Shown: positions 2,643 through 54,180, numbered from the stretch's first letter. The stretch is 64,000 nt of DNA from an uncultured delta proteobacterium (GCA_903881505.1 CAIRTM010000075.1:20878-84877), one strand, 5' to 3'. Translations and numbers: made by a program. Notes: a model not told the origin generated them from the letters alone.

Positions 2643-2685
2643 ATCCAGGCAGGCACAGGGGCCAGACCCTACTAACACCTCATTT

Positions 2686-3594
2686 TCACTGCAGGCCGCA
2701 GGCGATCTGGGCGGCCCGAACCGTGTTTTTCATCAGCATGGTGATGGTCATGGGCCCCACGCCGCCCGGCACGGGAGTGATGGCGCCGGCGATCTCGCGG
2801 GCAGCCTCGAAATCGACATCGCCCTTGAGGATGGCTATCTTTTTGCCGGTCTTCTCGCTGATCTTTTCCCCGACCCGGTTAACCCCCACATCAATAACAC
2901 AGGCTCCCGGTTTTATCCACTCCGGTTTTACCAGCCCCGGCACGCCCGCGGCCACGATCAGGATGTCGGCCCTGCGGCAGTGGCTGTCCAGGTTCTTTGT
3001 GCGGGTATGCACCACGGTAACGGTGGCGTTGGCGCCCGGTGCTTTTTGCAGCAGCATGTTGGCAATCGGCTTGCCTACGATATTGGAGCGGCCCACCACG
3101 ACAACCTCGGAGCCGCTGGTTTCAAAGCCGGAGCGCACGATCAACTCCTGGATGCCGGCCGGGGTGCAGGGCGGGAATTTGACCTGGTCGCCGCCGATCA
3201 TCAGACGGCCAACGTTCACGGGATGGAATCCGTCAACGTCCTTGTCCGGGTCAATGGCGTTCAAGACGGCTGATTCGTCAATGTGCACCGGCAGCGGCAG
3301 CTGAACGAGAATGCCGTGAATGACCGGGTCGCGATTGTATTTTTCGATCAGGGAAAGCAGCTTTTCCTGCGAAATGTCTCCCGGCTGGCTGTCCTGCACG
3401 GAATGAAAGCCGAGCTCGTGAGCTGTTTTCTGCTTGGCGGTCACATAGCTGACCGAGGCCGGGTTGTCTCCCGCCAGGATCGTGACCAGGCCGGGCGCTA
3501 CGCCGTGTTTCTGCTTGAGCTCTTCAACCGCGGTTTTGAGCTCTTCCCTGATCTGCGCGGCAATTTCTGTTCCGCTGATAATGCGTGCTGTCAT
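2686..3594 (-). CDS. folD: Bifunctional 5,10-methylene-THF dehydrogenase / methenyl-THF cyclohydrolase.
   Basis: Translation MTARIISGTEIAAQIREELK...ILAGDNPASVSYV...GILVQLPLP...PCTPAGI...VVVGRSNIVGKP...VPGGVGPMT carries canonical FolD motifs. Start chosen at the internal ATG (3594) preceded by GGAGGT. The upstream part of the 365-aa ORF is non-coding. Confidence 0.9.
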   Translation of the reverse strand: MTARIISGTEIAAQIREELKTAVEELKQKHGVAPGLVTILAGDNPASVSYVTAKQKTAHELGFHSVQDSQPGDISQEKLLSLIEKYNRDPVIHGILVQLPLPVHIDESAVLNAIDPDKDVDGFHPVNVGRLMIGGDQVKFPPCTPAGIQELIVRSGFETSGSEVVVVGRSNIVGKPIANMLLQKAPGANATVTVVHTRTKNLDSHCRRADILIVAAGVPGLVKPEWIKPGACVIDVGVNRVGEKISEKTGKKIAILKGDVDFEAAREIAGAITPVPGGVGPMTITMLMKNTVRAAQIACGLQ

Positions 3595-3694: not shown

Positions 3695-3763
3695 GTCATT
3701 GCGAGGGAGCAGCGCGGCTGAGAAATCTTGAAAGCCACGATTTCTCCCTGCGGTCGAAATGAC
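3695..3763. repeat. Palindromic interspersed repeat copy A. GTCATTGCGAGGGAGCAGCG...GAGAAATCttgaaagccacGATTTCTC...CGAAATGAC, with the inverted termini GTCATT/AATGAC.
   Basis: Imperfect terminal inverted repeats plus an internal GAGAAATC/GATTTCTC hairpin. A second copy lies at 54036-54101. It is intergenic between folD and cooC. Confidence 0.6.
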
Positions 3764-3785
3764 AAAGACAAAAAATTGCGCACGG

Positions 3786-4553: not shown

Positions 4554-6496
4554 TGTGCTGCTCCTGCGCGGGCTTTCGGCAGTGCTGCGTTCGGAAACAG
4601 CCGCGCGTCCGTGTGCGGCAGAAACATCGCGGCAACGTAGCGGTCCATGAAGGAGCTGTCGTCGCTCAATTCGATATTGGTCATATTGCGGCTGATACGC
4701 TCGGCGGCCTCAAGCACGGCGCCAGACAGGCAGCCCAGCTGCGCGCCCAGCAGGGACGCGTTGCCGATGAAGCTGAAGCGCTCAGGAGCGATATCGGGCA
4801 GCAGGCCGATGGTAACGGCCTCGCGCACGTTGAGAAAATCGCCGAACGCGCCGGCGATAATGACCTGCTGCAGGTCGTTGAATTGCAGACTCGCTTTTTC
4901 GAGCAGGCACTGGCATCCGGCGAACATGGCGGCCTTGGCCCGCAGCAGGTTGCTGATATCGGGCTCGGTAATGACCACGTCCTCTCCGCCGTTTTCCTCG
5001 CGGCTGCTGAGAACGAACTCCCTGCCGTCAGGGCCTGTGCGGATGCGCTTTGTGGGGCACTGCGTGTTGAAGCGCCCGTTTTGATCGATAATGCCGGCTG
5101 TCAGAAAACAGGCCAGAATGCTGATGGCGCCTGATCCGCAGATGCCCCGTGCCGCGGCGTGACCGACCGTGATGATCATCGGCTCGAGCGTCTCTGGGTC
5201 GATGTGCAGGCGCTCGATCGCACCGGGAGCAGCGCGCATGCCGCATCTCAGCCCGCCGCCCTCGAAGGCCGGCCCTGCCGAGCAGGAGGCGGTCATCAGC
5301 CAGTCACGGTTGCCCAGAACGATTTCGCCGTTGGTGCCGATGTCGATAAACAGGCACAGCTCCGGCCGCGTTGAGAGCCCCGAGGCAAGCACGCCGGCAA
5401 CAATATCGCCGCCGACGTAGGCTGCCACGGCCGGGAAAAGCTGCAGCGGTATTCCGGCCGGCAGGCGCAGACCCGCCTGCTGTGCGCTCACAGGAGGGAA
5501 AACATTGACGACCGGCGTGTACGGCGCCTGGCGGATATGCCTGGTTTCAAGGCCAAGCAGCAGGTGGCTCATGACCGTGTTGCCGGCCGCGATGACATGC
5601 GATATGCAGCCGGGCTCGATGCCGGCATCGTTTACAAGCCGGTCGATGATACTGTTCAGCCCCTCAAGCACGGACTGCCGCAGAATCTCTCGGCCGCCGG
5701 GTTTCTGGGCCCGCACCATGCGGGTGATCACGTCGTCGCCGTACTTGATCTGTGGATTGTAATGGGATGCAAGCGCTTTCGTCTCGCCGGTGCGCAGATC
5801 GAGCAGCCTGCCCCACAGCGACGTGGTGCCCACATCGATGGCAATTGCGAAGGCCCGCGGGGTTGTATCGCCAGGCTCAACGCGTATAATACGCAGCAAC
5901 GGAGCAGGCCCGGCACCGTTGCCGGCCGGCGAATGGCAGGGGTGCGGCTCAAGCAAAACCGTTACACGCCATCTGCCTGCCCGCGCGGCCTGCGGCAGCT
6001 CATGCAGGACCGCAGGATCAAGCGTGAGCGCGTCGAATCCGTGCTGCTGCTTCAAGGCGCGCATGAGCCTGGCCGCATCCGATGCCGTGTCGGTCAGCGA
6101 AGGCGAATCGATTGTCACGCACACCTTGCGCACGGGCGGGATGGTTAGGTCCGCAGGGGCCGGACCGGGCGCCTCAGCGCGGCCGGCGTGAAGCTCCTGC
6201 GGCGGCACTTGAAGTCTTGAGGTGTGGATAAGGGCAATCGCCGTATCGCTTTGTACCCGCGTGCCGCAGGCCAGCCGGAAGCCATCCTCAATATCCTGCG
6301 CGGCGAGCAGGCCGCCGGGCGCGCCGTCGACCGTGCCGGAGACGAGCCTCACCCGGCAGCGTCCGCAAATCCCCTGGCCGCCGCAGGCCGCGTTGATGTG
6401 CACGCCTGCCTCCATGGCCGCATCAAGCACGGTTGTGCCCTGTGGCACGCTCACGCGCACATCAAGGGGCTGAAAAGTTATGGTAACGTTTTTCAT
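4550..6496 (-). CDS. Reductive activator of the corrinoid Fe-S protein (RACo/AcsV-like). N-terminal plant-type 2Fe-2S ferredoxin domain plus C-terminal ASKHA ATPase domain.
   Basis: 648 aa. The N-terminus reads QPLDVRVSVPQGTTVLDAAMEAGVHINAACGGQGICGRCRV (2Fe-2S ferredoxin). The long C-terminal region has ASKHA-like Gly-rich segments (IDVGTTSL, DIGTNGEIVLG). It sits between fhs and cooC. Confidence 0.7.
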   Translation of the reverse strand: MKNVTITFQPLDVRVSVPQGTTVLDAAMEAGVHINAACGGQGICGRCRVRLVSGTVDGAPGGLLAAQDIEDGFRLACGTRVQSDTAIALIHTSRLQVPPQELHAGRAEAPGPAPADLTIPPVRKVCVTIDSPSLTDTASDAARLMRALKQQHGFDALTLDPAVLHELPQAARAGRWRVTVLLEPHPCHSPAGNGAGPAPLLRIIRVEPGDTTPRAFAIAIDVGTTSLWGRLLDLRTGETKALASHYNPQIKYGDDVITRMVRAQKPGGREILRQSVLEGLNSIIDRLVNDAGIEPGCISHVIAAGNTVMSHLLLGLETRHIRQAPYTPVVNVFPPVSAQQAGLRLPAGIPLQLFPAVAAYVGGDIVAGVLASGLSTRPELCLFIDIGTNGEIVLGNRDWLMTASCSAGPAFEGGGLRCGMRAAPGAIERLHIDPETLEPMIITVGHAAARGICGSGAISILACFLTAGIIDQNGRFNTQCPTKRIRTGPDGREFVLSSREENGGEDVVITEPDISNLLRAKAAMFAGCQCLLEKASLQFNDLQQVIIAGAFGDFLNVREAVTIGLLPDIAPERFSFIGNASLLGAQLGCLSGAVLEAAERISRNMTNIELSDDSSFMDRYVAAMFLPHTDARLFPNAALPKARAGAAQ

Positions 6497-8261: not shown

Positions 8262-8376
8262 GAGATGGTCCCTCTGTGGTCCTGAAATTCAGCCCTGTGC
8301 TTCGTGTGCCGGCAGAAGCAACCAGGTGGACGTAAAGGCTGGTGAAGTCGTAAAAAGTTTGAAAATGTTACGCTTA

Positions 8377-8440
8377 GTCATTCCGGCGCAGGCCGGAATC
8401 CAGGGATTTAAAGTGCGCGGACAAAAAACTGGACACCAAT
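8377..8440. repeat. Palindromic intergenic element GTCATTCCGGCGCAGGCCGGAATCCAGGGATTTAAAGTG. Possibly a distant relative of the 3695/54036 repeat family.
   Basis: Begins with the same GTCATT hexamer, followed by an 8-bp hairpin ATTCCGGC/GCCGGAAT. It lies in the fhs-cysK intergenic region. Confidence 0.4.
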
Positions 8441-12691: not shown

Positions 12692-12809
12692 ACAAATGCC
12701 TTCTCCTGAATTGTTCCGATATGCCAATTTTTCCGCCCGGCGTGATAAAATCCGCAGACGGTCTTATCTGTTATAGCCTGAAACACTATATGAAACGGTA
12801 TCTGCGAAG

Positions 12810-12964
12810 CACGTGTAAAAAGGCCGCAGGCAAGGCGTGCAAATCCGAAGGAATGCGGCGTACATTTGGTACGCCGCAGTGACTGGGGAAGCAGCACAAC
12901 GCAGCCCTTCGGCGAAGCTCAGGGCCGTGAGCCTGTCGAACGGCATCCGGTCTTTTTACACGTG
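12810..12964. repeat. About 155-bp element bounded by 17/18-bp inverted repeats (CACGTGTAAAAAGGCCG ... CGGTCTTTTTACACGTG). It contains an internal 10-bp-stem hairpin (TGCGGCGTAC...GTACGCCGCA). Candidate MITE or structured RNA between cysE and ettA.
   Basis: Left arm 12810-12826, right arm 12947-12964, seen directly in the sequence. No convincing ORF inside. Confidence 0.55.
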
Positions 12965-45777: not shown

Positions 45778-46542
45778 GTGCTTATAGATACCCACGCCCA
45801 TCTCGACCTTGATGACTTCGATGCCGACCGCGAAGCGGTCATAGCGCGCGCCCGCGCTGGCGGCGTCGGGCGCATCATCACCATCGGCATCGGCCTTGAC
45901 GAGTGCCGCCGGGCCATCGAGATCGCTGAAGCGCACCCGTTCATATATGCCGCCATCGGCATGCATCCGCACAACGCTTCAATGGTTGACCTGGCCGCGC
46001 TTGATTTTCTCGAAACACACGCCCGCGATACCCGCGTGGTCGCGCTTGGGGAAATAGGCCTCGATTTTTACCGCAACCGCAGCCCGCGACAAGACCAGGT
46101 GCGGGCCTTCCGCGCCCAGCTCGACCTGGCCGCTGCCCTGAAACTGCCGGTCGTGATCCACGACCGCGACGCGCACGAAGATACCCTGCGGATCCTGCGC
46201 GAGGAAAAGCCGCCCTGCGGCGGGGTGCTGCACTGTCTCTCCGGCGACACCACCATGGCGCGCGCCTGCATCGACCTTGGTTTTCTGATATCGATTCCCG
46301 GCACGATCACGTTCAAGAACGCCGCAACGCTGCACAGCGTTGTCGCTGACACGGGGCTCGAACACCTGCTGATCGAGACCGACTGCCCGTTCCTGACACC
46401 CGCGCCGCACCGCGGCAAACGCAACGAGCCGGCCTACGTGCGCTTTGTGGCGGAAAAGATCGCGGAGCTGAAAAAAACAAGCGTCGAGGACGTCATCGAG
46501 CGCACCGGCGCCAATGCCTGCCGCCTGTTCGGCCTGCGATAG
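45778..46542 (+). CDS. tatD: TatD-family metal-dependent deoxyribonuclease/hydrolase.
   Basis: (V)LIDTHAHLDLDDF...GEIGLDFY...VIHDRDAHEDTL...HCLSGD...ETDCPFLTP. GTG start. Confidence 0.85.
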   Translation: MLIDTHAHLDLDDFDADREAVIARARAGGVGRIITIGIGLDECRRAIEIAEAHPFIYAAIGMHPHNASMVDLAALDFLETHARDTRVVALGEIGLDFYRNRSPRQDQVRAFRAQLDLAAALKLPVVIHDRDAHEDTLRILREEKPPCGGVLHCLSGDTTMARACIDLGFLISIPGTITFKNAATLHSVVADTGLEHLLIETDCPFLTPAPHRGKRNEPAYVRFVAEKIAELKKTSVEDVIERTGANACRLFGLR

Positions 46543-46701
46543 GGGCGAACAGAGGTCTGCCCTCGAACATATGAAACCACGAGGGAACAGACTCAATCTG
46601 CTCCCGGGGCACTAATTGAGCTAAACGTCAAGCGTCCTGCAGAATGCGTCTCTCTAGAATGCAAAGAAGCGTCTTGCAGTGAACTGCTCATGCAATAATT
46701 T

Positions 46702-46760
46702 TACCGTGAAATCCGGTTTTTGTATGATAGAGTTCCCGTAACTTTTAACACGTGGCAGCA
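46702..46760. repeat. Repeat copy 1 of a local intergenic motif (CGTGAAATCCGG...AGTTCCCGTAACTTTTAACACGTGGCAGC).
   Basis: Related copies sit at 48310-48370 and 49405-49440. Each is 90-190 nt upstream of a + strand gene start. Confidence 0.5.
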
Positions 46761-46832
46761 TGGGGGGCTCTCGGATGCGCATCGCAAGAACTAATTGTTG
46801 CCATGTTTTCGGATGATTCCCAAGGTGGGTGT

Positions 46833-48143
46833 ATGAAAAAAAGACCGGCGCTGCTCTGTATTTTCGCATTGTTGTTGCTACTCACAAACCTTCTGCCCGC
46901 AGCACACGCCTCGACTATTTCCGCTAAACTCCGTGAACTGTACGCTGTGGGCGACTATCCTGCTATCGCAAAACTTCTTGAAAAAAGAATCGACGAAATT
47001 GAATCCGCAACCGCTGCAGGCAGCACCAAAGCCGACGGCAAAGAGATCTACAACCTACACCTGATGCTTGCGCATGTCTGCGCATGGCAGCTGGACAGGT
47101 TTAATGACGGTCTTGCAGAGTACGAAAGAGCGCTTGAGCTGAGGCGGGAACAGGAAAGGGAGGCACTGCAAAAAAAAATCGGGCCGAACATGTCAAGCCC
47201 GGCGCTCGAATATTTATTTATGGCTGGCATGTATGAACACATAAAAGATTACGCACGGGCAGTGGAATACTATCAAAAAACCCTTCAGGAGGCAAAAGCG
47301 TACAGCGATGCTTTAGCCAGCAGCGGTGAACGGGTTTTTCTGGGCAACGATCTTACGTACTTAATACAGTACGCAATCGACACCATCCAAATACAACTTC
47401 AGTCAGCAAAAACGTATACGCCTTTGGCAAAAAAAATTGACTTGATGCATGAAAGCAACCCGATGATGATGAACTTCATGTTCGCCACTGTATTTCCGGA
47501 ACAGGAATATATCTTCGAAAACAAAAGTTTTGTATTAGAAAACAATAACCTGAATATGGAGGCATTTATAAAACACAATGCCGCCAGCACGTATTCAATG
47601 TTGCTGGAAGGCGGCTTGCTGACGGGCGGTTTGACTGCAATCACTGACGATTCAATACAACGGGCCGCAGAAGCATTTCTCAAAAAATATCCTGACAGTT
47701 ACCTGTCTCTTGCGACTGGATTTTTGCTGTCCCAAAATTTTCTGAAAAATGGAGATGCCGAAAAAGCGCAATCGCATCTGGATGCGCTTAAAAAAACGGC
47801 AAAAAAAAGGAATATCGAGTTAGTTATCGAGCCGGACAAAAAGTTTGCCTCACCCGAGTCTACCTGGGAAGCCCTTCGCCAGGCTATGGCGGTCGGAGAT
47901 ATTGAAGCTGCCCTGTCATGCCACACCCCCGGTGACCCGAAATACCGAGAAATCTACAGTAAGTTTGGGCCGGAAATCTTAAAAAAAATTGGGGCGGACA
48001 TGAAGCCCATAGAAAAAATAAGTGCTGACGAACAAACAGCCAAGTATCGCGCCAACCGCAAGCACAAGGACATCGATAAGGAAATCACGTATTACGTATA
48101 CTTTGTAAAAACATACGGGGAGTGGAAAATAGAAAGCATGTGA
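46833..48143 (+). CDS. Secreted hypothetical protein (signal peptide, N-terminal TPR-like helical region, C-terminal alpha+beta domain).
   Basis: MKKRPALLCIFALLLLLTNLLPAAHAS signal peptide. Lower GC (about 45-50%) than the surrounding DNA. Flanked by copies of a short repeat. Confidence 0.6.
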   Translation: MKKRPALLCIFALLLLLTNLLPAAHASTISAKLRELYAVGDYPAIAKLLEKRIDEIESATAAGSTKADGKEIYNLHLMLAHVCAWQLDRFNDGLAEYERALELRREQEREALQKKIGPNMSSPALEYLFMAGMYEHIKDYARAVEYYQKTLQEAKAYSDALASSGERVFLGNDLTYLIQYAIDTIQIQLQSAKTYTPLAKKIDLMHESNPMMMNFMFATVFPEQEYIFENKSFVLENNNLNMEAFIKHNAASTYSMLLEGGLLTGGLTAITDDSIQRAAEAFLKKYPDSYLSLATGFLLSQNFLKNGDAEKAQSHLDALKKTAKKRNIELVIEPDKKFASPESTWEALRQAMAVGDIEAALSCHTPGDPKYREIYSKFGPEILKKIGADMKPIEKISADEQTAKYRANRKHKDIDKEITYYVYFVKTYGEWKIESM

Positions 48144-48309
48144 GAGCCTGGATGCGGCTTGAAGCATCCTGGCTACAGTGTGCTTGCTGCGAAGGCCCTG
48201 AGCATTCTGGGGGAGGTTGTTAATAAAATACACAAACATTCTCTGCCCACCCGTGTCAGAAATTGTCCTTTGTAAACAAAGTTGCTCGGAGCTGAAATGC
48301 TCCATTTTT

Positions 48310-48370
48310 CGCGTGAAAATCGCCCTCCCCTGTGGTAAAGTTCCCGATACTTTTTGATGGCTCCGCAAGA
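48310..48370. repeat. Repeat copy 2 (CGTGAAAATCGCC...AGTTCCCGATACTTTTTGATGGCTCCGC).
   Basis: Aligns with 46702-46760 at about 70% identity over about 55 nt. Confidence 0.5.
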
Positions 48371-48499
48371 AGTCGTCACACCGGTAAAAACCGGTGCCCA
48401 GTATTTCACTAACTACTTAAATTCCTGGACTCCGACCGGAGTTTATCCTGAGCACAGCCGAAGGGCCGGAAAGACTCGCAACAACTGAGGGTTTAGAAG

Positions 48500-49324
48500 A
48501 TGGCTGAACAGAAACGACGATTCACTCCGCTGCACATCGAGGCGACATCGCTTCCCGACGCCTGGTTCCAGACCGTGTACCGCTGCGTGGAACAGGGGCG
48601 CGATTTCACGATCGACCGCGGCTCGTACGCGGGCCAGAAGCGCCTTGAGTTCGACTACATCACCGTGCACATCCGCTACCCCGGCTCGCGGCCCCTGCTG
48701 CCGCAAATCCCCTCGCAGTACAACCTGCCCAACCCCGTGGCCGACGACTATCTGGACGACTACGTGCCCTATCTCATGACCGGCGCGATGCAGCCCGGCG
48801 AATCATACACCTACGGCCAGCGCATGTGCCGCTATCCGCTTGATTCGGCCTGGCATGAGTACAACAGCAAAACCAACACCGACATCCTCATCCGGGAACC
48901 CGAGGTGTGGAACAATCCCCTGATCATTATCCGGGACGGCAACGGCCTGTTCCTGAACCAGATCGAGCTTCTGATCTGGACCTACAAGAACAAGGGATTT
49001 CGCAACAACCAGATGGTGCTGCAGGTGGCCCACCCCACCGACATGCTGCTGCAGGACCCGCCCTGCCTGCGTGCGATCGACACCCGCATCCAGGACGGCA
49101 GCCTGCACTTTATCATCAACTTCCGCTCCTGGGACCTCTGGGGCGGCTTTCCCGCCAACCTTGCCGGCATGCAGATGATGAAGGAATACATCGCCTCCGA
49201 GATCGGCGTGCAGGACGGTGAAATGATCGTCTGCTCCAAGGGCCTGCACATGTACAACTATGTGTGGGAGCTGGCCGAGTGTTTGCGCGGGAAAACGATC
49301 GAAGAATTCCGCGCGGGCACATAG
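48500..49324 (+). CDS. Divergent thymidylate-synthase (ThyA) fold enzyme. Could be a pyrimidine-nucleotide C5 methylase or hydroxymethylase.
   Basis: 274 aa. The ThyA catalytic core is conserved: PPCLRAIDTRIQDGSLHFIINFRSWDLWGGFPANLAG (Cys nucleophile; RSxD...P.N.A) and GEMIVCSKGLHMYNY (the GD.H.Y.NH-like motif). YTYGQRM matches the YGKQWR motif. The N-terminal half is very divergent from canonical ThyA. Confidence 0.6.
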   Translation: MAEQKRRFTPLHIEATSLPDAWFQTVYRCVEQGRDFTIDRGSYAGQKRLEFDYITVHIRYPGSRPLLPQIPSQYNLPNPVADDYLDDYVPYLMTGAMQPGESYTYGQRMCRYPLDSAWHEYNSKTNTDILIREPEVWNNPLIIIRDGNGLFLNQIELLIWTYKNKGFRNNQMVLQVAHPTDMLLQDPPCLRAIDTRIQDGSLHFIINFRSWDLWGGFPANLAGMQMMKEYIASEIGVQDGEMIVCSKGLHMYNYVWELAECLRGKTIEEFRAGT

Positions 49325-49404
49325 CAGGCTTTTAGAAATCCCTTCAATAGGCAAACAAGCCGTTTCCCTTGCATGCGGTGACTAGGCAAACGTCAGGATT
49401 GATA

Positions 49405-49440
49405 AAAACATCTGCCCTGGCATGTGACTTTTAACACGGG
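49405..49440. repeat. Repeat copy 3 (partial): GTGACTTTTAACACGGGCAGTTACACG.
   Basis: Shares the core ACTTTTAACACG(N)GGCAG with copy 1. Confidence 0.45.
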
Positions 49441-49609
49441 CAGTTACACGCTCCGCAGGCTGTATACGAAAAATAGCGGCCCCTGTATCGAGGGTATTTT
49501 TCGTGCGGTTTTCAGCCAGGCAAAATGCATTTGCATTATTCTGTTAACATGTTATTTTCCTGACAATTATTAACTCCTTCCGCGGGTGGGTTTGCACGGG
49601 AAATCCGAT

Positions 49610-51118
49610 ATGGCAAAGACCTTTCAGCCCGGCTATGATGTGGTCGTTATCGGCAAAGGCATTGCGGGTTTAACAGCGGCCGTGAATGCCGCCGCCCGGG
49701 GAGCATCGGTAGCCCTCGTTTACCACAGCACCCTGTGTTCTTCACATCTGGCCTATGAAGGTGTCTTCCGCTTTCCGGAAAACATCGACGAACTGGACCA
49801 CATGGTCCGCGAACACGGCTGCGGTTTGGCCGACCCGAAACTGCTGGCCGCTTTTTTCCACCACTACCGGGACTTCGGTCAGGACGATCTGGAACGGATT
49901 TTCCCGCTGGCCGGTGCAAAGCCGATCGGCAAAAAACACCGGCTGGGAGGTCCCGGCATTCTGGCCGACCTGGAGCACCTGTGCAACTCGACCGGCGTCA
50001 CCTTTATTCGCGGGACAGTGGTCAAAATCGATGCGCCAGACGGGATCCTGTCCGCCGTGCGCATGTATCACGTACGGCGCCTGATCACCATACAAGCCAA
50101 AAGCGTCATTATTGCATCCGGCGGCGGCATCGGGAACATATACGGAACCTCCGATAATTGCGCAGCCTGCTGCCCTCCCGGAACGGCACTGGCCCTGAAC
50201 GCAGGCGCGCGCCTGAGGGACCTGGAATTTATCAGCTTTCATCCGTTTGGCGCAATCGGCTGCCGGACCCATGACGGCACAACACCGGTATTTACCTTTT
50301 TCAGCATAGGGGAAAATACAGAAATCTACAGCAACGAGACAAACCGCAGAATCCCTTTTATCGAAGACCTGATTGCGACAAGAACCGCCGACAAAAACCC
50401 GCATGATAACATTTTCAGGATTGCCCGTACCGTTTGGCAGAACAACGGCATCCATATATTCAAAAACATCCGCGGCAGCCTGCAGCGAATCAACCTGTCG
50501 GTTGTGGCGCACAGCCTGATCGGCGGCATTGAGGTAAACGCCGACTTTAAAACCGCTGTCAATGGCCTGTACGCAGCCGGAGAAGCGGCTGCGGGGCTGA
50601 ACGGCGCCGGCCGGCTGCCGGGCATGGCCCTGCTGGAGGGATATATTTCCGGGAAACAGGCCGGCATCAATGCCGCGGACCATGCCGGCAAAAGCGGTTT
50701 TTACCCGGTTGACCCGGACGGATTTTTCCCGGCCTCGATGCGCTTCGGCATGTTTTCAAATCTAACGGATACAATAAAACAGATCGCAGATGCAGCCCTC
50801 TTTATTGAAAGAACGGCTGCCGGGCTTCAACTCGCGCGGAAAAGGCTTCTGAAGCTCCAGTCGGGAATCCTGAAGAACCATCTCGCCCAGCATATCGAAA
50901 ACGACCTTTTAGAAACGGCCTTGGCCATGGTCGATGCTTCTCTTCTCAGAAAAGAAAGCCGGGGCAACTTTTCCCGTCAGGACTTCCCGGGTATGGATCC
51001 GGGCATGCAGCGAAACATCGTCATCCAGAAAAATCGCCCCGATTCTGAAATTACCGTCTCCTGGAGCAATGAACCTGCGGCCTTTTTGGCCTGCAGCAAC
51101 GGACAGCCGTCTTTTTGA
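49610..51118 (+). CDS. FAD-dependent oxidoreductase of the L-aspartate oxidase / fumarate reductase flavoprotein family.
   Basis: YDVVVIGKGIAGLTAAVNAA dinucleotide fold, HSLIGGIEVNADFKTAVNGLYAAGEAAAGLNGAGRLPGMALLEGYISG, and a C-terminal ...LLRKESRGNFSRQDFP. About 503 aa from ATG 49610 (or GTG 49586). Confidence 0.7.
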   Translation: MAKTFQPGYDVVVIGKGIAGLTAAVNAAARGASVALVYHSTLCSSHLAYEGVFRFPENIDELDHMVREHGCGLADPKLLAAFFHHYRDFGQDDLERIFPLAGAKPIGKKHRLGGPGILADLEHLCNSTGVTFIRGTVVKIDAPDGILSAVRMYHVRRLITIQAKSVIIASGGGIGNIYGTSDNCAACCPPGTALALNAGARLRDLEFISFHPFGAIGCRTHDGTTPVFTFFSIGENTEIYSNETNRRIPFIEDLIATRTADKNPHDNIFRIARTVWQNNGIHIFKNIRGSLQRINLSVVAHSLIGGIEVNADFKTAVNGLYAAGEAAAGLNGAGRLPGMALLEGYISGKQAGINAADHAGKSGFYPVDPDGFFPASMRFGMFSNLTDTIKQIADAALFIERTAAGLQLARKRLLKLQSGILKNHLAQHIENDLLETALAMVDASLLRKESRGNFSRQDFPGMDPGMQRNIVIQKNRPDSEITVSWSNEPAAFLACSNGQPSF

Positions 51119-51155
51119 CCGGCAAACAGACAAAAACAGCGATTCTCCAAAGCGC

Positions 51156-51878
51156 ATGCAAAAACAAACATCTGTTCCCGAACACCCGGTCATCGGCATC
51201 CTCGGCTGGGAAGACAGCAACACGGCAAGCATATACGGCAGCATCGCCGCTCCGGGCACCTTTTCGTTTCCCGTCCTGTTCATGCCCGTCACCGGGGCCT
51301 GTTATGAAACCGTTATTGCACACCCGGACCGGCGGATATTGAATGCGATGCTTGCGGCAGCCAGGCACATGGAAAAATCCGGCGTCAAGGCGATAACCAC
51401 CAGCTGCGGGTTCAACGCCATATTCCAGTCCGACCTTGCCGGAGCGGTTTCTGTGCCGGTAGTTACGTCCACCCTGCTGCTGATCCCGTTTATCGCCGGC
51501 GCCATCGGCGGCGCAAAAAGGATCGGCATTATAACTGCCGACAAAAATCACCTGACCCGCGGCCTTCTGGAAAAATCAGGGGTTTCCGGCCAGACGCCTC
51601 TGTGTGTCTACGGCATAGAAAAAACCGCAGCCTATCCCCATACCTGCCAGAATGCGCGGCCCGAACTGGTGGACCGGGACGAGTTCCGCAGAGAGGTGAC
51701 CGGTATCGCGGAATTGATGGTTACTGAAAATCCCGACCTGGGCGCCATTGTCCTGGAGTGCACCATTTTGCACGTCTTTGCAGACGACATCAAACGTATG
51801 ACCGGGTTGCCGGTATTTGATATCGTCTCCCTCACCAATTACATGTACAACGCCGTTGCGCGCAGTACTTCACCCTGA
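51156..51878 (+). CDS. Asp/Glu/hydantoin-racemase-superfamily protein (Asp racemase / maleate isomerase / arylmalonate decarboxylase-like).
   Basis: 240 aa with two conserved Cys in ITTSCGFNA and VLECTIL contexts, and an N-terminal IGILGW. 37 nt after the flavoprotein stop. Confidence 0.6.
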   Translation: MQKQTSVPEHPVIGILGWEDSNTASIYGSIAAPGTFSFPVLFMPVTGACYETVIAHPDRRILNAMLAAARHMEKSGVKAITTSCGFNAIFQSDLAGAVSVPVVTSTLLLIPFIAGAIGGAKRIGIITADKNHLTRGLLEKSGVSGQTPLCVYGIEKTAAYPHTCQNARPELVDRDEFRREVTGIAELMVTENPDLGAIVLECTILHVFADDIKRMTGLPVFDIVSLTNYMYNAVARSTSP

Positions 51879-51902
51879 TGACCCGGTCATTCGGGATGGG
51901 GT

Positions 51903-52979
51903 GTGGGGCGGAATACTGCCGAAGGCATTGAATTTTTTATAGACAGTTCAACGACGGAAAACAGTTTGGTAGAAATTGTACACAACCCCCGACTGATCCA
52001 GACGGACCTGCCGGTATGCGCATCGGAGGGATACCTGAAGTCCGCCGCAAAAACCTACGGCTGGTTTGTCAGTCCTGAATTCATCCTGCCCTTTTATACC
52101 TTGAACCGGGCTTTCACCAGGCACATGATTTTCACTTCGGGCCCCGTAAAAAACACCCCGGCGACTACCATACAGCAGGAAAAAGCGTTTCTGACAGACG
52201 TGGTCGCCCGGTGCCGCCGCATGGCTGTCGATGTAATCAGCCAGCCGAAAACAACGGCGCTCTTTACCACGTATCCCGACGGCGCCATCTGCATCCCGTG
52301 GGGATGTTATCAGGTTGACCTTCTCAAAAGCGAAGATGAGCTGTTTTCCAGGTTACATGCCAGCCGCCGCCGTGTTATCCGGAAGGCGGAACGGGAGGGT
52401 GTTTGCATCTTCCGCGGCCCCGAACACATTAATGCCTGCCATAGGCTCATTGTACGGACGCTGGAACGACAGGGCCGGCCGGGCATACCGCATGCGCAGT
52501 TAGCGGCCTATCAGGAACATCTGCCGCTGAACGTATCATTTTATCTGGCATGCCATAACCGCGCAGACCATGCCTGCGCCGTCCTGGTACATGACAGCGA
52601 AACCGCCTTCTACATTCACGGCGGAAGTTGCACAACGCCGCATCACGGTGCTGCAAGCCTGCTTCACTGGACCGCCATGCGGGACATGAAATGCCGGGGG
52701 CTGAAGACCTACAATTTTGTCGGCGGCAGGATCCGTCCGGTCAAGGGGTCGAAGCAGGAATTCATTCAGCTGTTCAAATCACGATTCGGAACCACCTTTA
52801 CGAGCGGTTATTTATGGAAGTATCCGTTGAGCCCCTGGAAACACAGCCTGTACCGGACGTACAATCGTTTCAAAGGCCTGGCCAGGGGGAAATATCATTA
52901 CGAAGACATCATCGACAACGAGATCAGAACCGGCAGCATGGAAAAATCAACACTGATTAATAATGCTCTCCGGACATAA
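51903..52979 (+). CDS. FemAB-like / GNAT-fold acyl- or aminoacyl-transferase (pfam Acetyltransf_6-like).
   Basis: 358 aa. C-terminal ...SFYLACHNRADHACAVLVHDSETAFYIHGGS...GAASLLHWTAMRDMKCRGLKTYNFVGG matches the FemX/FemAB-family core. GTG start 24 nt after the preceding stop. Confidence 0.6.
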   Translation: MGRNTAEGIEFFIDSSTTENSLVEIVHNPRLIQTDLPVCASEGYLKSAAKTYGWFVSPEFILPFYTLNRAFTRHMIFTSGPVKNTPATTIQQEKAFLTDVVARCRRMAVDVISQPKTTALFTTYPDGAICIPWGCYQVDLLKSEDELFSRLHASRRRVIRKAEREGVCIFRGPEHINACHRLIVRTLERQGRPGIPHAQLAAYQEHLPLNVSFYLACHNRADHACAVLVHDSETAFYIHGGSCTTPHHGAASLLHWTAMRDMKCRGLKTYNFVGGRIRPVKGSKQEFIQLFKSRFGTTFTSGYLWKYPLSPWKHSLYRTYNRFKGLARGKYHYEDIIDNEIRTGSMEKSTLINNALRT

Positions 52980-53061
52980 TCCGGTCCGCAGGGCATATTC
53001 GGAATTTTCAAAGGTACTGCGGAACAATAACAAAAACCAACCCGTTGCAATCCACCTGTTT

Positions 53062-54006
53062 ATGAAAAAAACGATTTTAATCGTCCTGCACAAACATGAC
53101 TCGCCGCTGCAAAACTCCTGCTATGTAATCAAGTATTTCATCCAGCGATGGGCGGAACAGGGATATACCGTTTTGAGCGCTAACGGCACCGACAAAAAAA
53201 TTGATGCGGATATCGTGATCAATCATGTTGACTTAACCGTTACGCCTTCGAACTACATCCGTTATTTCAGCGCATATAACAAAAAAATTAATACGGATGT
53301 AACGGATATTTCCAAAACAGCTGTCAGCAACTGCATTTTAAAACCGGGTGCAAGCCATGCCGGTCCGGTAATTGTGAAAACGAACAATAATTGCGGCGGG
53401 CTGAGAGAAGAGAACATGCGGATGCGCTCTCGAAGCATGGCTGCCTGCGCACGAAAGATTACATCGGTTTTGTCAAACCGTATCAAGAAGGCCGAAATAC
53501 ACAATAGCGCATTGCAATCATCAGGGGTAACGCCATCAAACTGCAGACACATTGACACTGTTAAAAACTGGAACCATGTCACAACGCTGGATAACAGAAA
53601 CTATCCGATCTTTGACAGTGTCCACCAGGTACCCGCCGGCGTTTGGAATAATGAAGCTCTGGTTGTCGAACGATTTATGCCGGAACGTGACGCCGCGGGC
53701 AACTATGTATGCAGATACCTCTATTTTCTGGGAGATAAATCCTTTTGTGTTGTCACAACATCGGAAAATCCTGTCGCCAAAAGCCAGATCATCGGCAGGC
53801 AGATTCTACCGGGCCCCGGGCCGGTAGAGTTGCAACAATTTCGCAGGACATTCCGCATGGATTACGGAAGACTGGATTACACCTTAGTAGACGGCCGGGT
53901 TTGGCTGTTTGATGCCAACAGGACCCCAACGTTTTCTCCGGAAACCTATGCGACATACAGGGAGCAGATTGATGCGTTGTCGGAAGGGATACACTCATTT
54001 TTTTAG
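53062..54006 (+). CDS. ATP-grasp-fold ligase (RimK/Ddl-like), putative.
   Basis: 314 aa. C-terminal ...ALVVERFMPE...YLYFLGDK...LDYTLVDGRVWLFDANRTPTFS resembles the ATP-grasp C-domain (E/D...N metal ligands). Low GC (about 45%). Confidence 0.5.
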   Translation: MKKTILIVLHKHDSPLQNSCYVIKYFIQRWAEQGYTVLSANGTDKKIDADIVINHVDLTVTPSNYIRYFSAYNKKINTDVTDISKTAVSNCILKPGASHAGPVIVKTNNNCGGLREENMRMRSRSMAACARKITSVLSNRIKKAEIHNSALQSSGVTPSNCRHIDTVKNWNHVTTLDNRNYPIFDSVHQVPAGVWNNEALVVERFMPERDAAGNYVCRYLYFLGDKSFCVVTTSENPVAKSQIIGRQILPGPGPVELQQFRRTFRMDYGRLDYTLVDGRVWLFDANRTPTFSPETYATYREQIDALSEGIHSFF

Positions 54007-54035: not shown

Positions 54036-54101
54036 GTCATTGCGGGCGCAGCGAGAAATCTTTATAAAAACGACAGGATATCTCCCCGCGGCAGAGATGA
54101 C
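54036..54101. repeat. Palindromic interspersed repeat copy B. GTCATTGCGGGCGCAGCGAGAAATCT...ATATCTCCCCGCGGCAGAGATGAC.
   Basis: Same termini and GAGAAATCT core as copy A at 3695-3763. Intergenic between the ATP-grasp and membrane-protein genes. Confidence 0.6.
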
Positions 54102-54180
54102 ACTGCTTATATGGTTATGGTAAAAAAAAATGCTCTAAATCATCTTCAACTTCTTATACAGGTAAAAGCTGTTTTTCCCT

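What the first reader, a model, noticed from the sequence alone, without database searches (positions are those of the whole stretch)
46543..49609. A shared motif of about 25-55 nt (core ACTTTTAACACGNGGCAG preceded by AGTTCCCG(T/A)A and CGTGAAA) recurs upstream of three consecutive transcription units.
Copies lie at 46702-46760, 48310-48370 and 49405-49440. Each sits in the leader of a + strand gene: the secreted hypothetical, the ThyA-like gene and the flavoprotein operon. This suggests a common cis-regulatory site, so the three units may form one regulon under a single, unidentified regulator. Alternatively, these are remnants of a small mobile element that delivered or rearranged this island. 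The same intergenic regions contain further local repeats, AAGCGTC(C/T)TGCAG twice at about 46620-46680 and a perfect palindrome AATGCATTTGCATT at 49525-49540, consistent with dense regulatory DNA.
Basis: seen in the sequence. Interest (0 to 1): 0.6.

Follow-up and report, generated by a model that had tools for sequence, protein, structure and literature searches.

The report
Two old paralogous promoters, not three
Two of the three "motif copies" are an anciently duplicated, conserved promoter pair in front of a TPR gene and an archaeal-type thymidylate synthase gene. The third is a short, probably chance or relic match outside any promoter, so there is no three-operon regulon and no mobile element.

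Summary
Copy 1 (46692-46757) and copy 2 (48301-48358) are truly related: the local alignment beat 1000 of 1000 shuffles, and CGTGAAA-N13/14-TGnTAnAGT occurs only at these two places in 64 kb. No motif is shared by all three copies beyond ACTTTT.

Copy 2 is the native promoter-like element (P_A) of the archaeal-type ThyA-like gene. It is conserved in about 10 related Desulfobacterota lineages, roughly 50 nt before the start codon. Copy 1 is its old paralogue (P_B), which sits 1-4 kb upstream of P_A in six lineages and precedes a variable cargo, here the TPR gene. Both have a T-tract, an invariant CGTGAAA at -35, a 16/17-bp spacer, an extended -10 (TGnTAnAGT) and a conserved RTAAYTTTT start region. 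I read this as sigma-70-type promoter architecture.

Copy 3 (49424-49443) matches only 20 of 21 nt of P_B's downstream part, and its significance is borderline (p about 0.02 locally, E about 0.4 window-wide). It has no -35 or -10. It lies in a lineage-specific junction after ThyA, about 90 nt upstream of the flavoprotein operon's own conserved promoter (TTGCAT-16-TGtTATTTT, 49531-49558).

A metagenome scan and an HMM scan found no dispersed copies, and there are no terminal repeats or target-site duplications. This is an ordinary feature, of modest interest.

The parts
46692..46757 (+). It has a T-tract at 46699-46702, the -35 box CGTGAAA at 46705-46711, a 16-nt spacer, extended -10 TG at 46725-46726 plus TAGAGT at 46728-46733, and the conserved start region TCCCGTAACTTTTAACACGTGG at 46734-46755.
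   Evidence: nhmmer with the family HMM gives E=2.5e-11. The pattern matches here. Orthologous elements occur in L005 (2568-2634), L090, L145/L126, L113 and L136.
48301..48358 (+). It has a T-tract at 48305-48309, CGTGAAA at 48312-48318, a 17-nt spacer, TG at 48333-48334 plus TAAAGT at 48336-48341, and the start region TCCCGATACTTTTTGA at 48342-48357.
   Evidence: nhmmer gives E=1.6e-15. The element is conserved upstream of ThyA-like orthologues in L005/L143, L135, L118, L101/L093, L125, L136, L123, L100/L090 and L126/L145.
49424..49443 (+). It has no -35 or -10 boxes. It is probably a chance match or a relic.
   Evidence: Searches show borderline statistics. It lies inside the lineage-specific segment 49348-49508 and is absent upstream of the flavoprotein-operon orthologues L094, L095 and L096.
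49531..49558 (+). Conserved promoter-like element of the flavoprotein-racemase-FemAB-like-hypothetical operon: -35 TTGCAT at 49531-49536, a 16-nt spacer, and TG at 49550-49551 plus TATTTT at 49553-49558.
   Evidence: The window, L094, L095 and L096 align over this block. The palindrome itself is not conserved.
48360..48486 (+). An insertion-bearing stretch of the ThyA-like leader, about 100 nt longer than in L005, L118, L101 and others. It contains the hairpins CACCGGTaaaaACCGGTG and ACTCCGaccgGAGT. It separates P_A from the ribosome-binding site.
   Evidence: Alignment with L005, the family alignment and the fold. L135 shares the insertion and carries a further nested insert of about 146 nt.
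46630..46679 (+). Two direct repeats of AAGCGTCYTGCAG, 37 nt apart, lying 25-75 nt upstream of the -35 box of P_B. Their function is unknown, and they are not conserved in L005.
49457..49511 (+). A long imperfect hairpin (CGAAAAATA...TATTTTTCG core) between copy 3 and the flavoprotein-operon promoter. It may be a terminator for the ThyA-like gene.
   Evidence: The fold has a z-score of only -1.3. The terminator scan did not flag it, so this assignment is tentative.

Best explanation
Copies 1 and 2 are two paralogous sigma-70-type promoters, P_B and P_A. They arose by an old duplication in a subclade of Thermodesulfobacteriota and have been kept at orthologous positions ever since.

**Shared architecture.** Each has:
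- a T-rich tract;
- an invariant CGTGAAA(A/T)T box at the -35 position;
- a 16-17-bp spacer of free sequence;
- an extended -10, TGnTA(A/G)AGT;
- a conserved (G/A)TAA(C/T)TTTT region around the presumed start site.

**What each drives.** P_A drives the archaeal-type thymidylate-synthase-like gene. P_B drives whatever lies between the two promoters. Here that is the TPR secreted-protein gene, after loss of a small SpoIIAA-like gene that precedes it in relatives.

**Copy 3.** It is not a member of this family. It is a 20-nt match to the start region of P_B with no promoter boxes. It lies after the ThyA-like stop codon in a junction segment created by a rearrangement, and about 90 nt upstream of the flavoprotein operon's own conserved promoter.

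**Shown versus inferred.** Shown: the paralogy, the orthologous conservation, the box-and-spacer pattern, the absence of dispersed copies, and the separate promoter-like block of the flavoprotein operon. Inferred: that these elements are active promoters, where transcription starts, and which sigma factor or regulator acts on them.
For: **Copy 1 and copy 2 are related.**
- The similarity is far beyond chance.

**P_A is conserved.**
- It is conserved upstream of ThyA-like orthologues found independently by gene homology: L005, L090/91/92 and L093.
- Six more lineages were recovered by the metagenome pattern scan, and all of them carry ThyA-like downstream.
- The boxes are conserved while the spacer varies, for example CGCCCTCCCC, TGCTCTTTCA and TGATTTTTCG.
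- The element ends about 50 nt before the ATG in lineages without leader insertions.

**P_B is conserved.**
- It was found by HMM in L005, L090, L145/L126, L113 and L136, always 1-4 kb upstream of P_A on the same strand.

**The duplication is old.**
- A-versus-A identity (0.62-0.87) and B-versus-B identity (0.57-0.95) exceed A-versus-B identity (0.48-0.75).
- Within-genome A-B identity (0.65) is about the same as between-genome A-B identity (0.62). This points to an old duplication without gene conversion.

**The geometry fits a sigma-70 promoter.**
- GTGAAA, then 16/17 bp, then TGnTAnAGT has T-12, A-11 and T-7 plus the TG extension. This can be read directly from the sequence.

**The flavoprotein operon has its own promoter.**
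- A different promoter-like block is conserved in four lineages.
- Copy 3 is absent from all of the orthologues.

**The family is not dispersed.**
- The window holds only two HMM hits at E<10 in 64 kb.
Against: - No transcription start data exist. The simple consensus scan did not flag GTGAAA/TAAAGT, which scores 8 of 12. For copy 1 it flagged an overlapping TTTACC-17-TATGAT instead.
- A second -10-like box, GATAAT or GATACT, lies just downstream. In a more distant orthologue, L007, the equivalent TATACT pairs with a good TTGAAT -35. The exact -10 and start site are therefore uncertain.
- CGTGAAA is invariant in every member, and the start region is also conserved. This is more than a generic sigma-70 promoter needs, so a specific regulator may be involved.
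- Part of the apparent invariance comes from ascertainment. The metagenome members were found with a pattern that fixes TTTTNNCGTGAAA and TGNTANAGTT.
- Copy 3 has a parallel in L136. There, a B-type leader fragment without promoter boxes recurs in front of another gene. A relic or functional short element therefore cannot be excluded.
Confidence: 0.7

Rival explanations
1. The shared boxes are the operator of one dedicated transcription factor, so the TPR gene and the ThyA-like gene form a small regulon, possibly together with the flavoprotein operon through copy 3. The most obvious candidate is the MarR-family protein that four relatives encode divergently right next to P_B. This rival partly overlaps the best explanation, because an operator can sit inside a promoter.
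For: - CGTGAAA(A/T)T and (G/A)TAA(C/T)TTTT are invariant or nearly so in both paralogues across lineages whose spacers and flanks have diverged to 50-70% identity.
- In L090, L145/L126, L113 and L136, P_B lies in the divergent intergenic region next to a MarR gene.
- TTTTC-N4-GAAAA is a short dyad in P_A (sequence).
Against: - No MarR homologue lies in the 64-kb window or in the 17.6 kb of L005.
- The dyad has different arm spacing in P_A and P_B: 4 nt versus 2 nt, or a 15-bp register in the window. It is therefore not a conserved palindrome (my reading).
- No further sites occur in 64 kb.
- Long contigs of relatives (95-207 kb) each gave a single strict-pattern hit.
- The flavoprotein operon's conserved promoter shows none of the boxes.
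- Part of the box invariance comes from how the members were found.
Confidence: 0.25
2. The copies are remnants of a small mobile element (a MITE, a REP, or an insertion-sequence end) that delivered or rearranged the low-GC island.
For: - The locus is rearrangement-prone. The cargo between P_B and P_A varies.
- The window carries a 38-kb inversion with a breakpoint just after ThyA-like.
- GC content drops at 46.5-55.5 kb.
- Small insertions sit in the ThyA-like leader.
- Copy 3 sits in a junction segment, and L136 and L113 show shuffled B-type leader fragments.
Against: - There are only two copies in 64 kb.
- In the metagenome scan the family occurs only at this locus type. The remaining hits, about 47, have no extended similarity. 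I estimate that number is what chance would give; the tool did not compute it.
- The viral scans gave only unrelated hits.
- Both copies are orthologously fixed in position and orientation across lineages.
- I saw no terminal inverted repeats or target-site duplications at the ends of the homologous blocks (sequence).
- No related sequence lies at the other inversion junction, 10.85-11.0 kb.
Confidence: 0.05
3. The conserved sequences are transcribed cis-regulatory RNA, such as a riboswitch, an attenuator or a protein-binding leader shared by the mRNAs.
For: - The conserved (G/A)TAA(C/T)TTTT(A/C)AACAC stretch would lie at the 5' end of the transcripts.
- A B-type leader fragment recurs without the upstream boxes in L136 and, as copy 3, in the window.
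Against: - Rfam gave no hit at the gathering threshold in the window, and none at E<=1 in 46400-49700.
- The predicted folds of the leaders are no more stable than shuffles, with z-scores of -0.01, -1.3 and -1.3.
- The most conserved boxes (T-tract, CGTGAAA, TGnTAnAGT) show promoter-type geometry with a free spacer and no stem-like complementarity.
- The leaders downstream of the start region are unrelated between P_A and P_B, and tolerate 100-250-nt insertions.
Confidence: 0.05
4. For copy 3 only: the 20-of-21 match to P_B is a coincidence.
For: - 20 of 1000 shuffles reach it among the three intergenic regions, on one strand and with three pairs tested.
- The E-value is 0.35-0.54 when the query is searched against the whole window.
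- Background loci contain the 11-mer class A[CT]TTT[TC]AACAC at 0.003 per kb of strand. That predicts about 0.4 in the window, against 2 observed.
- There are no promoter boxes and no conservation in orthologues.
Against: - It is on the same strand, within 2.7 kb of P_B, and matches exactly the part of P_B that is conserved across lineages.
- L136 offers a parallel case.
Confidence: 0.55

Closest known systems
Sigma-70 (RpoD) promoters with an extended -10 (TGnTATAAT) and an upstream A/T-rich tract
   Same: - A -35-like hexamer, GTGAAA, matches TTGACA at 4 of 6 positions.
- The spacer is 16-17 bp.
- TGn is followed by a hexamer that keeps T-12, A-11 and T-7.
- A T-rich tract lies just upstream.
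- The element sits about 50 nt before the start codon in lineages without insertions.
- The boxes are conserved and the spacer is free.
   Different: - The -35 box is a fixed non-consensus CGTGAAA(A/T)T in every member.
- An extra 10-15-nt start region is conserved, and it contains a second -10-like GATAAT.
- No start-site data exist.
- The simple consensus scan scores the element below its threshold.
MarR-family regulated divergent promoters, where the regulator gene is transcribed divergently from its target operon and the operator overlaps the promoter
   Same: In four relatives P_B lies in the divergent intergenic region beside a MarR gene. The boxes are conserved beyond what the polymerase needs.
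   Different: - No MarR gene is near the element in this window or in L005.
- No conserved palindrome could be defined.
- Binding was not tested.
REP elements and MITEs (dispersed short intergenic repeats)
   Same: The sequence is short and intergenic, it is seen more than once, and the region is rearrangement-prone.
   Different: - There are only two copies, both at one locus.
- Their positions are orthologously conserved.
- There are no terminal inverted repeats or target-site duplications.
- There is no stable hairpin.

Real insertion-type repeats do exist nearby, in the ThyA-like leader at 48360-48486, but they are unrelated to the motif.
Cis-regulatory leader RNAs (riboswitches, attenuators)
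   Same: It lies upstream of metabolic genes, and part of the conserved sequence is probably transcribed.
   Different: There is no Rfam match, no fold stability above shuffles, and no complementarity between the conserved blocks.

Membership tests
Sigma-70-type promoter with extended -10 | A -35-like and a -10-like hexamer separated by 16-18 bp, with T-12, A-11 and T-7 retained and TG at -15/-14 | tested here: met
   Copy 1 reads GTGAAA (46706-11), 16 bp, TGa TAGAGT (46725-33). Copy 2 reads GTGAAA (48313-18), 17 bp, TGg TAAAGT (48333-41). Each hexamer matches the consensus at only 4 of 6, and the tool's 9-of-12 threshold is not reached.
Sigma-70-type promoter with extended -10 | A conservation pattern of fixed boxes and a free spacer across orthologues, at a constant short distance from the gene start | tested here: met
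   The 13-member alignment and the P_B alignment. The element ends about 50 nt before the ThyA-like ATG in L005, L101, L118, L125, L136, L123, L100 and L126.
Sigma-70-type promoter with extended -10 | A primary transcription start 5-9 nt downstream of the -10 | not testable with these tools
   No transcriptome or 5'-end data are available for this uncultured organism.
REP / MITE-type dispersed repeat | Many copies dispersed through the genome | tested here: not met
   There are two HMM hits in 64 kb. The strict-pattern metagenome scan found the family only upstream of ThyA-like loci, with 2 hits on the L005 contig and 1 each on contigs of 95-207 kb. The whole genome of this MAG could not be scanned.
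REP / MITE-type dispersed repeat | Terminal inverted repeats, target-site duplications, or a stable palindromic hairpin | tested here: not met
   Inspection of the ends of the homologous blocks showed none. The folds are not more stable than shuffles.
Transcription-factor regulon operator | The same site upstream of several separate transcription units | tested here: inconclusive
   Two adjacent units share it. The third unit, the flavoprotein operon, has a different conserved promoter and only a partial, borderline match. No unlinked sites occur in 64 kb.
Transcription-factor regulon operator | Dyad or direct-repeat symmetry, and a cognate regulator | tested here: inconclusive
   The short TTTTC..GAAAA dyad has inconsistent spacing between P_A and P_B. 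A MarR gene is adjacent to P_B in four relatives but absent from the window. Binding could not be tested.
Cis-regulatory RNA (Rfam families) | A match to a curated covariance model, or a conserved and unusually stable structure | tested here: not met
   Rfam gave 0 hits at gathering in the window and 0 at E<=1 in 46400-49700. Fold z-scores run from -0.01 to -1.5.

The most novel reading that the evidence does not exclude
P_B and P_A may be more than two promoters. They could be a conserved pair of directly repeated control elements, recognised by one dedicated regulator (for instance the neighbouring MarR of the relatives). The pair brackets a slot upstream of an archaeal-type thyA in which cargo genes are repeatedly exchanged. 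Cargo seen so far includes TPR, SpoIIAA-like, ICMT and methyltransferase genes and toxin-antitoxin modules; in one lineage even the gene after P_A has changed. On this reading, recombination at or next to the repeated start-region sequence (TAAYTTTTMAACAC) drives the turnover. Copy 3 in the window, and the leader fragment without promoter boxes in L136, would be scars of such events.
Probability: 0.12. Interest if true: 0.45.

Novelty: new member of a known kind. Interest (0 to 1): 0.2.

Why it matters
The result corrects a tempting over-reading. Three adjacent operons do not share one motif, so the data support neither a three-unit regulon nor a mobile-element footprint.

What is there is a clean example of two paralogous promoters kept for a long time at one locus of uncultured sulfate-reducer relatives. 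That gives a concrete, testable promoter model for a group with almost no experimental promoter data: T-tract, then CGTGAAA, then 17 bp, then TGnTAnAGT.

It also flags the region upstream of an archaeal-type thymidylate synthase gene as a hotspot of gene turnover. The practical value is for annotation and for anyone who wants to express or study these genes. It does not open a new biological question.

Tried and rejected
**Searches that found nothing relevant**
- Rfam found nothing at gathering across the whole window or at E<=1 across 46400-49700.
- RNA folds of the three leaders and of copy 3 gave z-scores from -0.01 to -1.5, so there is no structure signal.
- Two viral-contig scans, one with each half of the motif, gave 2 and 3 hits. 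All were in AT-rich contigs and none had extended similarity.
- A literature search for Desulfovibrio promoter and start-site data gave nothing specific to this motif, and I did not pursue it (two searches were syntax errors).

**Sigma-factor and operator ideas rejected by inspection**
These comparisons rest on consensus sequences recalled from my own knowledge.
- ECF-type sigma promoters, including the GGAACTT that appears on the reverse strand: the box spacing is 22-23 nt rather than 16-17, and there is no downstream gene on that strand.
- Sigma-32 (CTTGAAA-N13-15-CCCCAT) and sigma-28: the box spacing does not fit.
- Sigma-54: only a weak GG-N10-GC is present.
- NrdR, Rex, CRP/FNR and LexA-type operators: I could find no second half-site.

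**Tests of a recombination origin**
- Inversion mediated by promoter copies: no related sequence lies at the left junction, 10.74-11.04 kb.
- Concerted evolution of P_A and P_B: within-genome identity is not higher than between-genome identity.

**Synteny footprinting that did not help**
The genome contigs relatives at 70-81% ThyA identity (L006-L014, L033) have unrelated upstream regions. The one exception is a short TTCCCG..ATACTTTTTG echo in L007. None of the other window genes tested has a homologue in the genome-contig loci.


Full report
**Context.** The window comes from an uncultured Thermodesulfobacteriota (delta-proteobacterial) genome. The closest species-level relative found is MAG VGSH01000026 (L005), with 96% amino-acid identity for the ThyA-like protein. 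All genes around the finding are on the + strand:
- TatD, 45778-46542
- a TPR-containing secreted hypothetical, 46833-48143
- a ThyA-like protein, 48500-49324
- a flavoprotein of the FAD_binding_2 family, 49610-51118, followed by a racemase-like gene, a FemAB-like gene and a hypothetical

The ThyA-like protein's best NCBIfam match is TIGR03283, at 98.9 bits, which is below that model's cutoff. GC content falls from about 0.60 to 0.46-0.56 between 46.5 and 55.5 kb.

**Checking the observation.**
- Copies 1 and 2 share two in-register blocks: ATGC..TTTT..CGTGAAA and TG.TA.AGTTCCCG..ACTTTT (families D13 and D15).
- AGTTCCCGWWACTTTT occurs exactly twice in 64 kb, against 0.01 expected.
- CGTGAAA-N12-16-TGNTANAGT occurs twice, against 0 in shuffles.
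- The best local alignment of the two intergenic regions scores 22, against 11.8 +/- 1.7 in 1000 dinucleotide shuffles, none of which reached it.
- Copy 3 shares GT(A/G)ACTTTTAACACG(T)GGCAG with copy 1, 20 of 21 with one gap. It has neither AGTTCCCG nor CGTGAAA. Copy 2 lacks AACACG..GGCAG.
- The copy 1 / copy 3 match is reached by 20 of 1000 shuffles, and its E-value is 0.35-0.54 when searched against the whole window.
- Intergenic regions 2 and 3 show no similarity to each other.

There is therefore one solid pairwise relationship and one borderline one. No three-way motif exists beyond ACTTTT.

**What copy 2 is.** I fetched relatives in three independent ways: by ThyA-like homology, by TPR-protein homology, and by a strict DNA pattern in metagenomes.
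- In L005 the 156 nt upstream of ThyA-like, including copy 2, are 87% identical to the window, although the neighbouring genes differ.
- In L090/91/92 and L093, where the TPR protein is 67-69% identical, the same block lies upstream of ThyA-like: ATTTTTCCCGTGAAAAT(T/C)G, then N9-10, then TGGTAAAGTT, then ..CG.TAA.TTTT.
- The pattern TTTTNNCGTGAAAN{12,16}TGNTANAGTT gave 60 metagenome hits. Thirteen belong to this family. Ten of these precede a ThyA-like orthologue of 86-97% identity, and one (L113) is at the orthologous position.
- The other hits, about 47, show no similarity outside the fixed positions. By my own rough estimate that is about the number chance would give.
- In the alignment the boxes are fixed while the spacer varies. 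The element ends about 50 nt before the ATG in lineages without insertions.
- The geometry is that of a sigma-70-type promoter: GTGAAA, 17 bp, TGgTAAAGT with T-12, A-11 and T-7, preceded by a T-tract. I call it P_A.
- In the window and in L135, an insertion of about 100 nt carrying hairpins (48360-48486) separates P_A from the ribosome-binding site. L135 has a further nested insert.

**What copy 1 is.**
- The L005 contig gave two pattern hits. The second, L005 2568-2634, aligns with window copy 1 over about 110 nt, including the GTAACT.T.AACAC.TGGCA part. There it precedes a higA-like antitoxin gene, not a TPR gene.
- An HMM built from the 13 members found further, more diverged second copies in L090, L145/L126, L113 and L136. 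They lie 1-2.7 kb upstream of P_A on the same strand, with E-values from 3.5e-5 to 0.036.
- These second copies align with copy 1. The consensus is TTTT(T/C)(T/C)CGTGAAAT..G.TTTTT.GTATG(G/A)TA, followed by (G/A)TAA(C/T)TTT(T/C)AACAC..GG. I call this element P_B.
- A-versus-A and B-versus-B identities exceed A-versus-B identities. Within-genome A-B identity (0.65) equals between-genome identity (0.62). The duplication therefore predates the radiation of this subclade, and the copies have not homogenised each other.
- In L090, P_B precedes a SpoIIAA-like 133-aa gene and then the TPR gene. In the window that small gene is missing, and homology with L090 resumes about 20 nt before the TPR start codon.
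- The genes between P_B and P_A differ between lineages: TPR, ICMT, a methyltransferase, toxin-antitoxin modules.
- In L090, L145/L126, L113 and L136, P_B lies next to a divergently transcribed MarR-family gene. Neither the window nor L005 has a homologue nearby.

**What copy 3 is.**
- The flavoprotein-racemase-FemAB-like-hypothetical cluster is a conserved four-gene unit in three other lineages, with 68-80% identity for the flavoprotein.
- Their upstream regions share with the window only the block TTGCA(T/A)TATT..GT.A...TG.TATTTT and, in L094, the ribosome-binding region. In the window this block is a good promoter-like element at 49531-49558.
The inverted repeat itself is not conserved.
- Copy 3 (49424-49443) lies about 90 nt upstream of that promoter, inside 49348-49508. 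This segment has no counterpart in ThyA-like relatives, whose homology ends at 49331-49347, or in flavoprotein-operon relatives, whose homology starts near 49509.
- A long imperfect hairpin (49457-49511) lies between copy 3 and the promoter. The terminator scan did not flag it.
- Copy 3 has no -35 or -10 boxes.
- A parallel exists in L136. There, a B-type leader fragment (TTTTCAACACACGGTAGATACAAGGGG) recurs before the ICMT gene without the CGTGAAA box. In L113 the same leader follows P_A.
- Copy 3 may therefore be a relic of recombination among these elements, but the statistics allow plain chance.

**Mechanism.** The best-supported reading is that P_B and P_A are promoters read by the housekeeping-type RNA polymerase holoenzyme, and that their similarity is inherited. 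The invariant, non-consensus CGTGAAA(A/T)T box and the conserved RTAAYTTTT start region go beyond what a generic promoter needs. They leave room for a shared regulator, and the MarR protein next to P_B in relatives is the obvious candidate. I could not define a consistent dyad, and part of the invariance comes from how members were found. Which hexamer is the true -10 is also uncertain. A GATAAT/GATACT box lies 5 nt downstream, and in the more distant L007 the equivalent TATACT pairs with a good TTGAAT -35. No start-site data exist.

**Alternatives rejected.**
- A mobile element or REP is not supported: two copies in 64 kb, no dispersed copies in the scans, fixed orthologous positions, and no terminal repeats or target-site duplications.
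- A structured RNA is not supported.
- By inspection, the box spacing does not fit ECF, sigma-32, sigma-28 or sigma-54 promoters.

**Verdict.**
- The regulon idea is defensible for the TPR and ThyA-like units only.
- The mobile-element idea is not supported.
- The feature is an ordinary kind of thing, a duplicated and conserved promoter, in an undescribed lineage-specific form.
- Interest is low to modest.

Noticed in passing
window ~10.85-11.0 kb and ~49.33-49.35 kb: In all relatives (L005, L090, L123, L126, L135, L136), ThyA-like is followed directly by DinB, then a PALP enzyme, then formate-tetrahydrofolate ligase. In the window these three genes lie at 10.96 to 6.5 kb on the minus strand. 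This implies an inversion of about 38 kb, with one breakpoint just after ThyA-like. I found no repeat shared by the two junctions.
   Followed up: partly
window 48360-48486; L135 143-288: The ThyA-like leader carries an insertion of about 100 nt containing perfect small hairpins. It is absent from L005 and most relatives. L135 shares it and has a further nested insert of about 146 nt. Pieces of that nested insert match window 8376-8437, 3732-3764 and 54077-54103, so a small insertion-repeat family is present in this genome.
   Followed up: partly
window 12806-12905: A sequence of about 100 nt recurs at 75-87% identity in intergenic regions of relatives: twice in L005, and once each in L090, L126/L145 and L123, near DinB. 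This is another short repeated or conserved non-coding element of unknown nature.
   Followed up: no
window 49610-54006; L094, L095, L096: The flavoprotein (aspartate-oxidase/fumarate-reductase-like), an Asp/Glu-racemase-like protein, a FemAB/GNAT-like protein and a hypothetical of about 310-350 aa form a four-gene cluster. The cluster is conserved in three other lineages, in different neighbourhoods, and its function is unknown.
   Followed up: partly
window 48500-49324: The ThyA-like protein is closest to the archaeal (methanogen-type) thymidylate synthase model TIGR03283, at 98.9 bits against a cutoff of 174.55. It is only weakly similar to classical ThyA. The 80 best loci kept come from Thermodesulfobacteriota, Spirochaetota, several archaeal MAGs and a few other bacterial groups.
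   Followed up: partly
L005 1889-5093; L113; L145 8449-10772: The slot between P_B and P_A holds different genes in each lineage. L005 has a toxin-antitoxin island: RHH/PIN, higA twice (2649-3000 and 4739-5092, 91% identical), Phd/RelE-like, and MntA/HepT. L145 has a methyltransferase. In L113 the gene after P_A is nucleoside-2-deoxyribosyltransferase-like rather than ThyA-like.
   Followed up: partly
window ~47766 (inside the TPR gene): Four independent assemblies of the same organism (L003, L004 and two without DNA) all start exactly 734 nt upstream of the ThyA-like ATG, next to long A-runs at 47790-47810. This points to a recurrent assembly break or strain heterogeneity in the TPR gene.
   Followed up: no
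window 48288-48309: The terminator-like hairpin GGAGCtgaaatGCTCC plus its T-run, lying after the TPR gene, overlaps the T-tract of P_A. The same T-run may therefore serve as terminator tail and as promoter upstream tract. The hairpin is different in L005.
   Followed up: no
window 46630-46679: AAGCGTCYTGCAG occurs twice, 37 nt apart, with AGAATGC also repeated between the two copies. The repeats lie just upstream of P_B. They are not conserved in L005, where this position is the 3' end of a PIN-toxin gene.
   Followed up: partly
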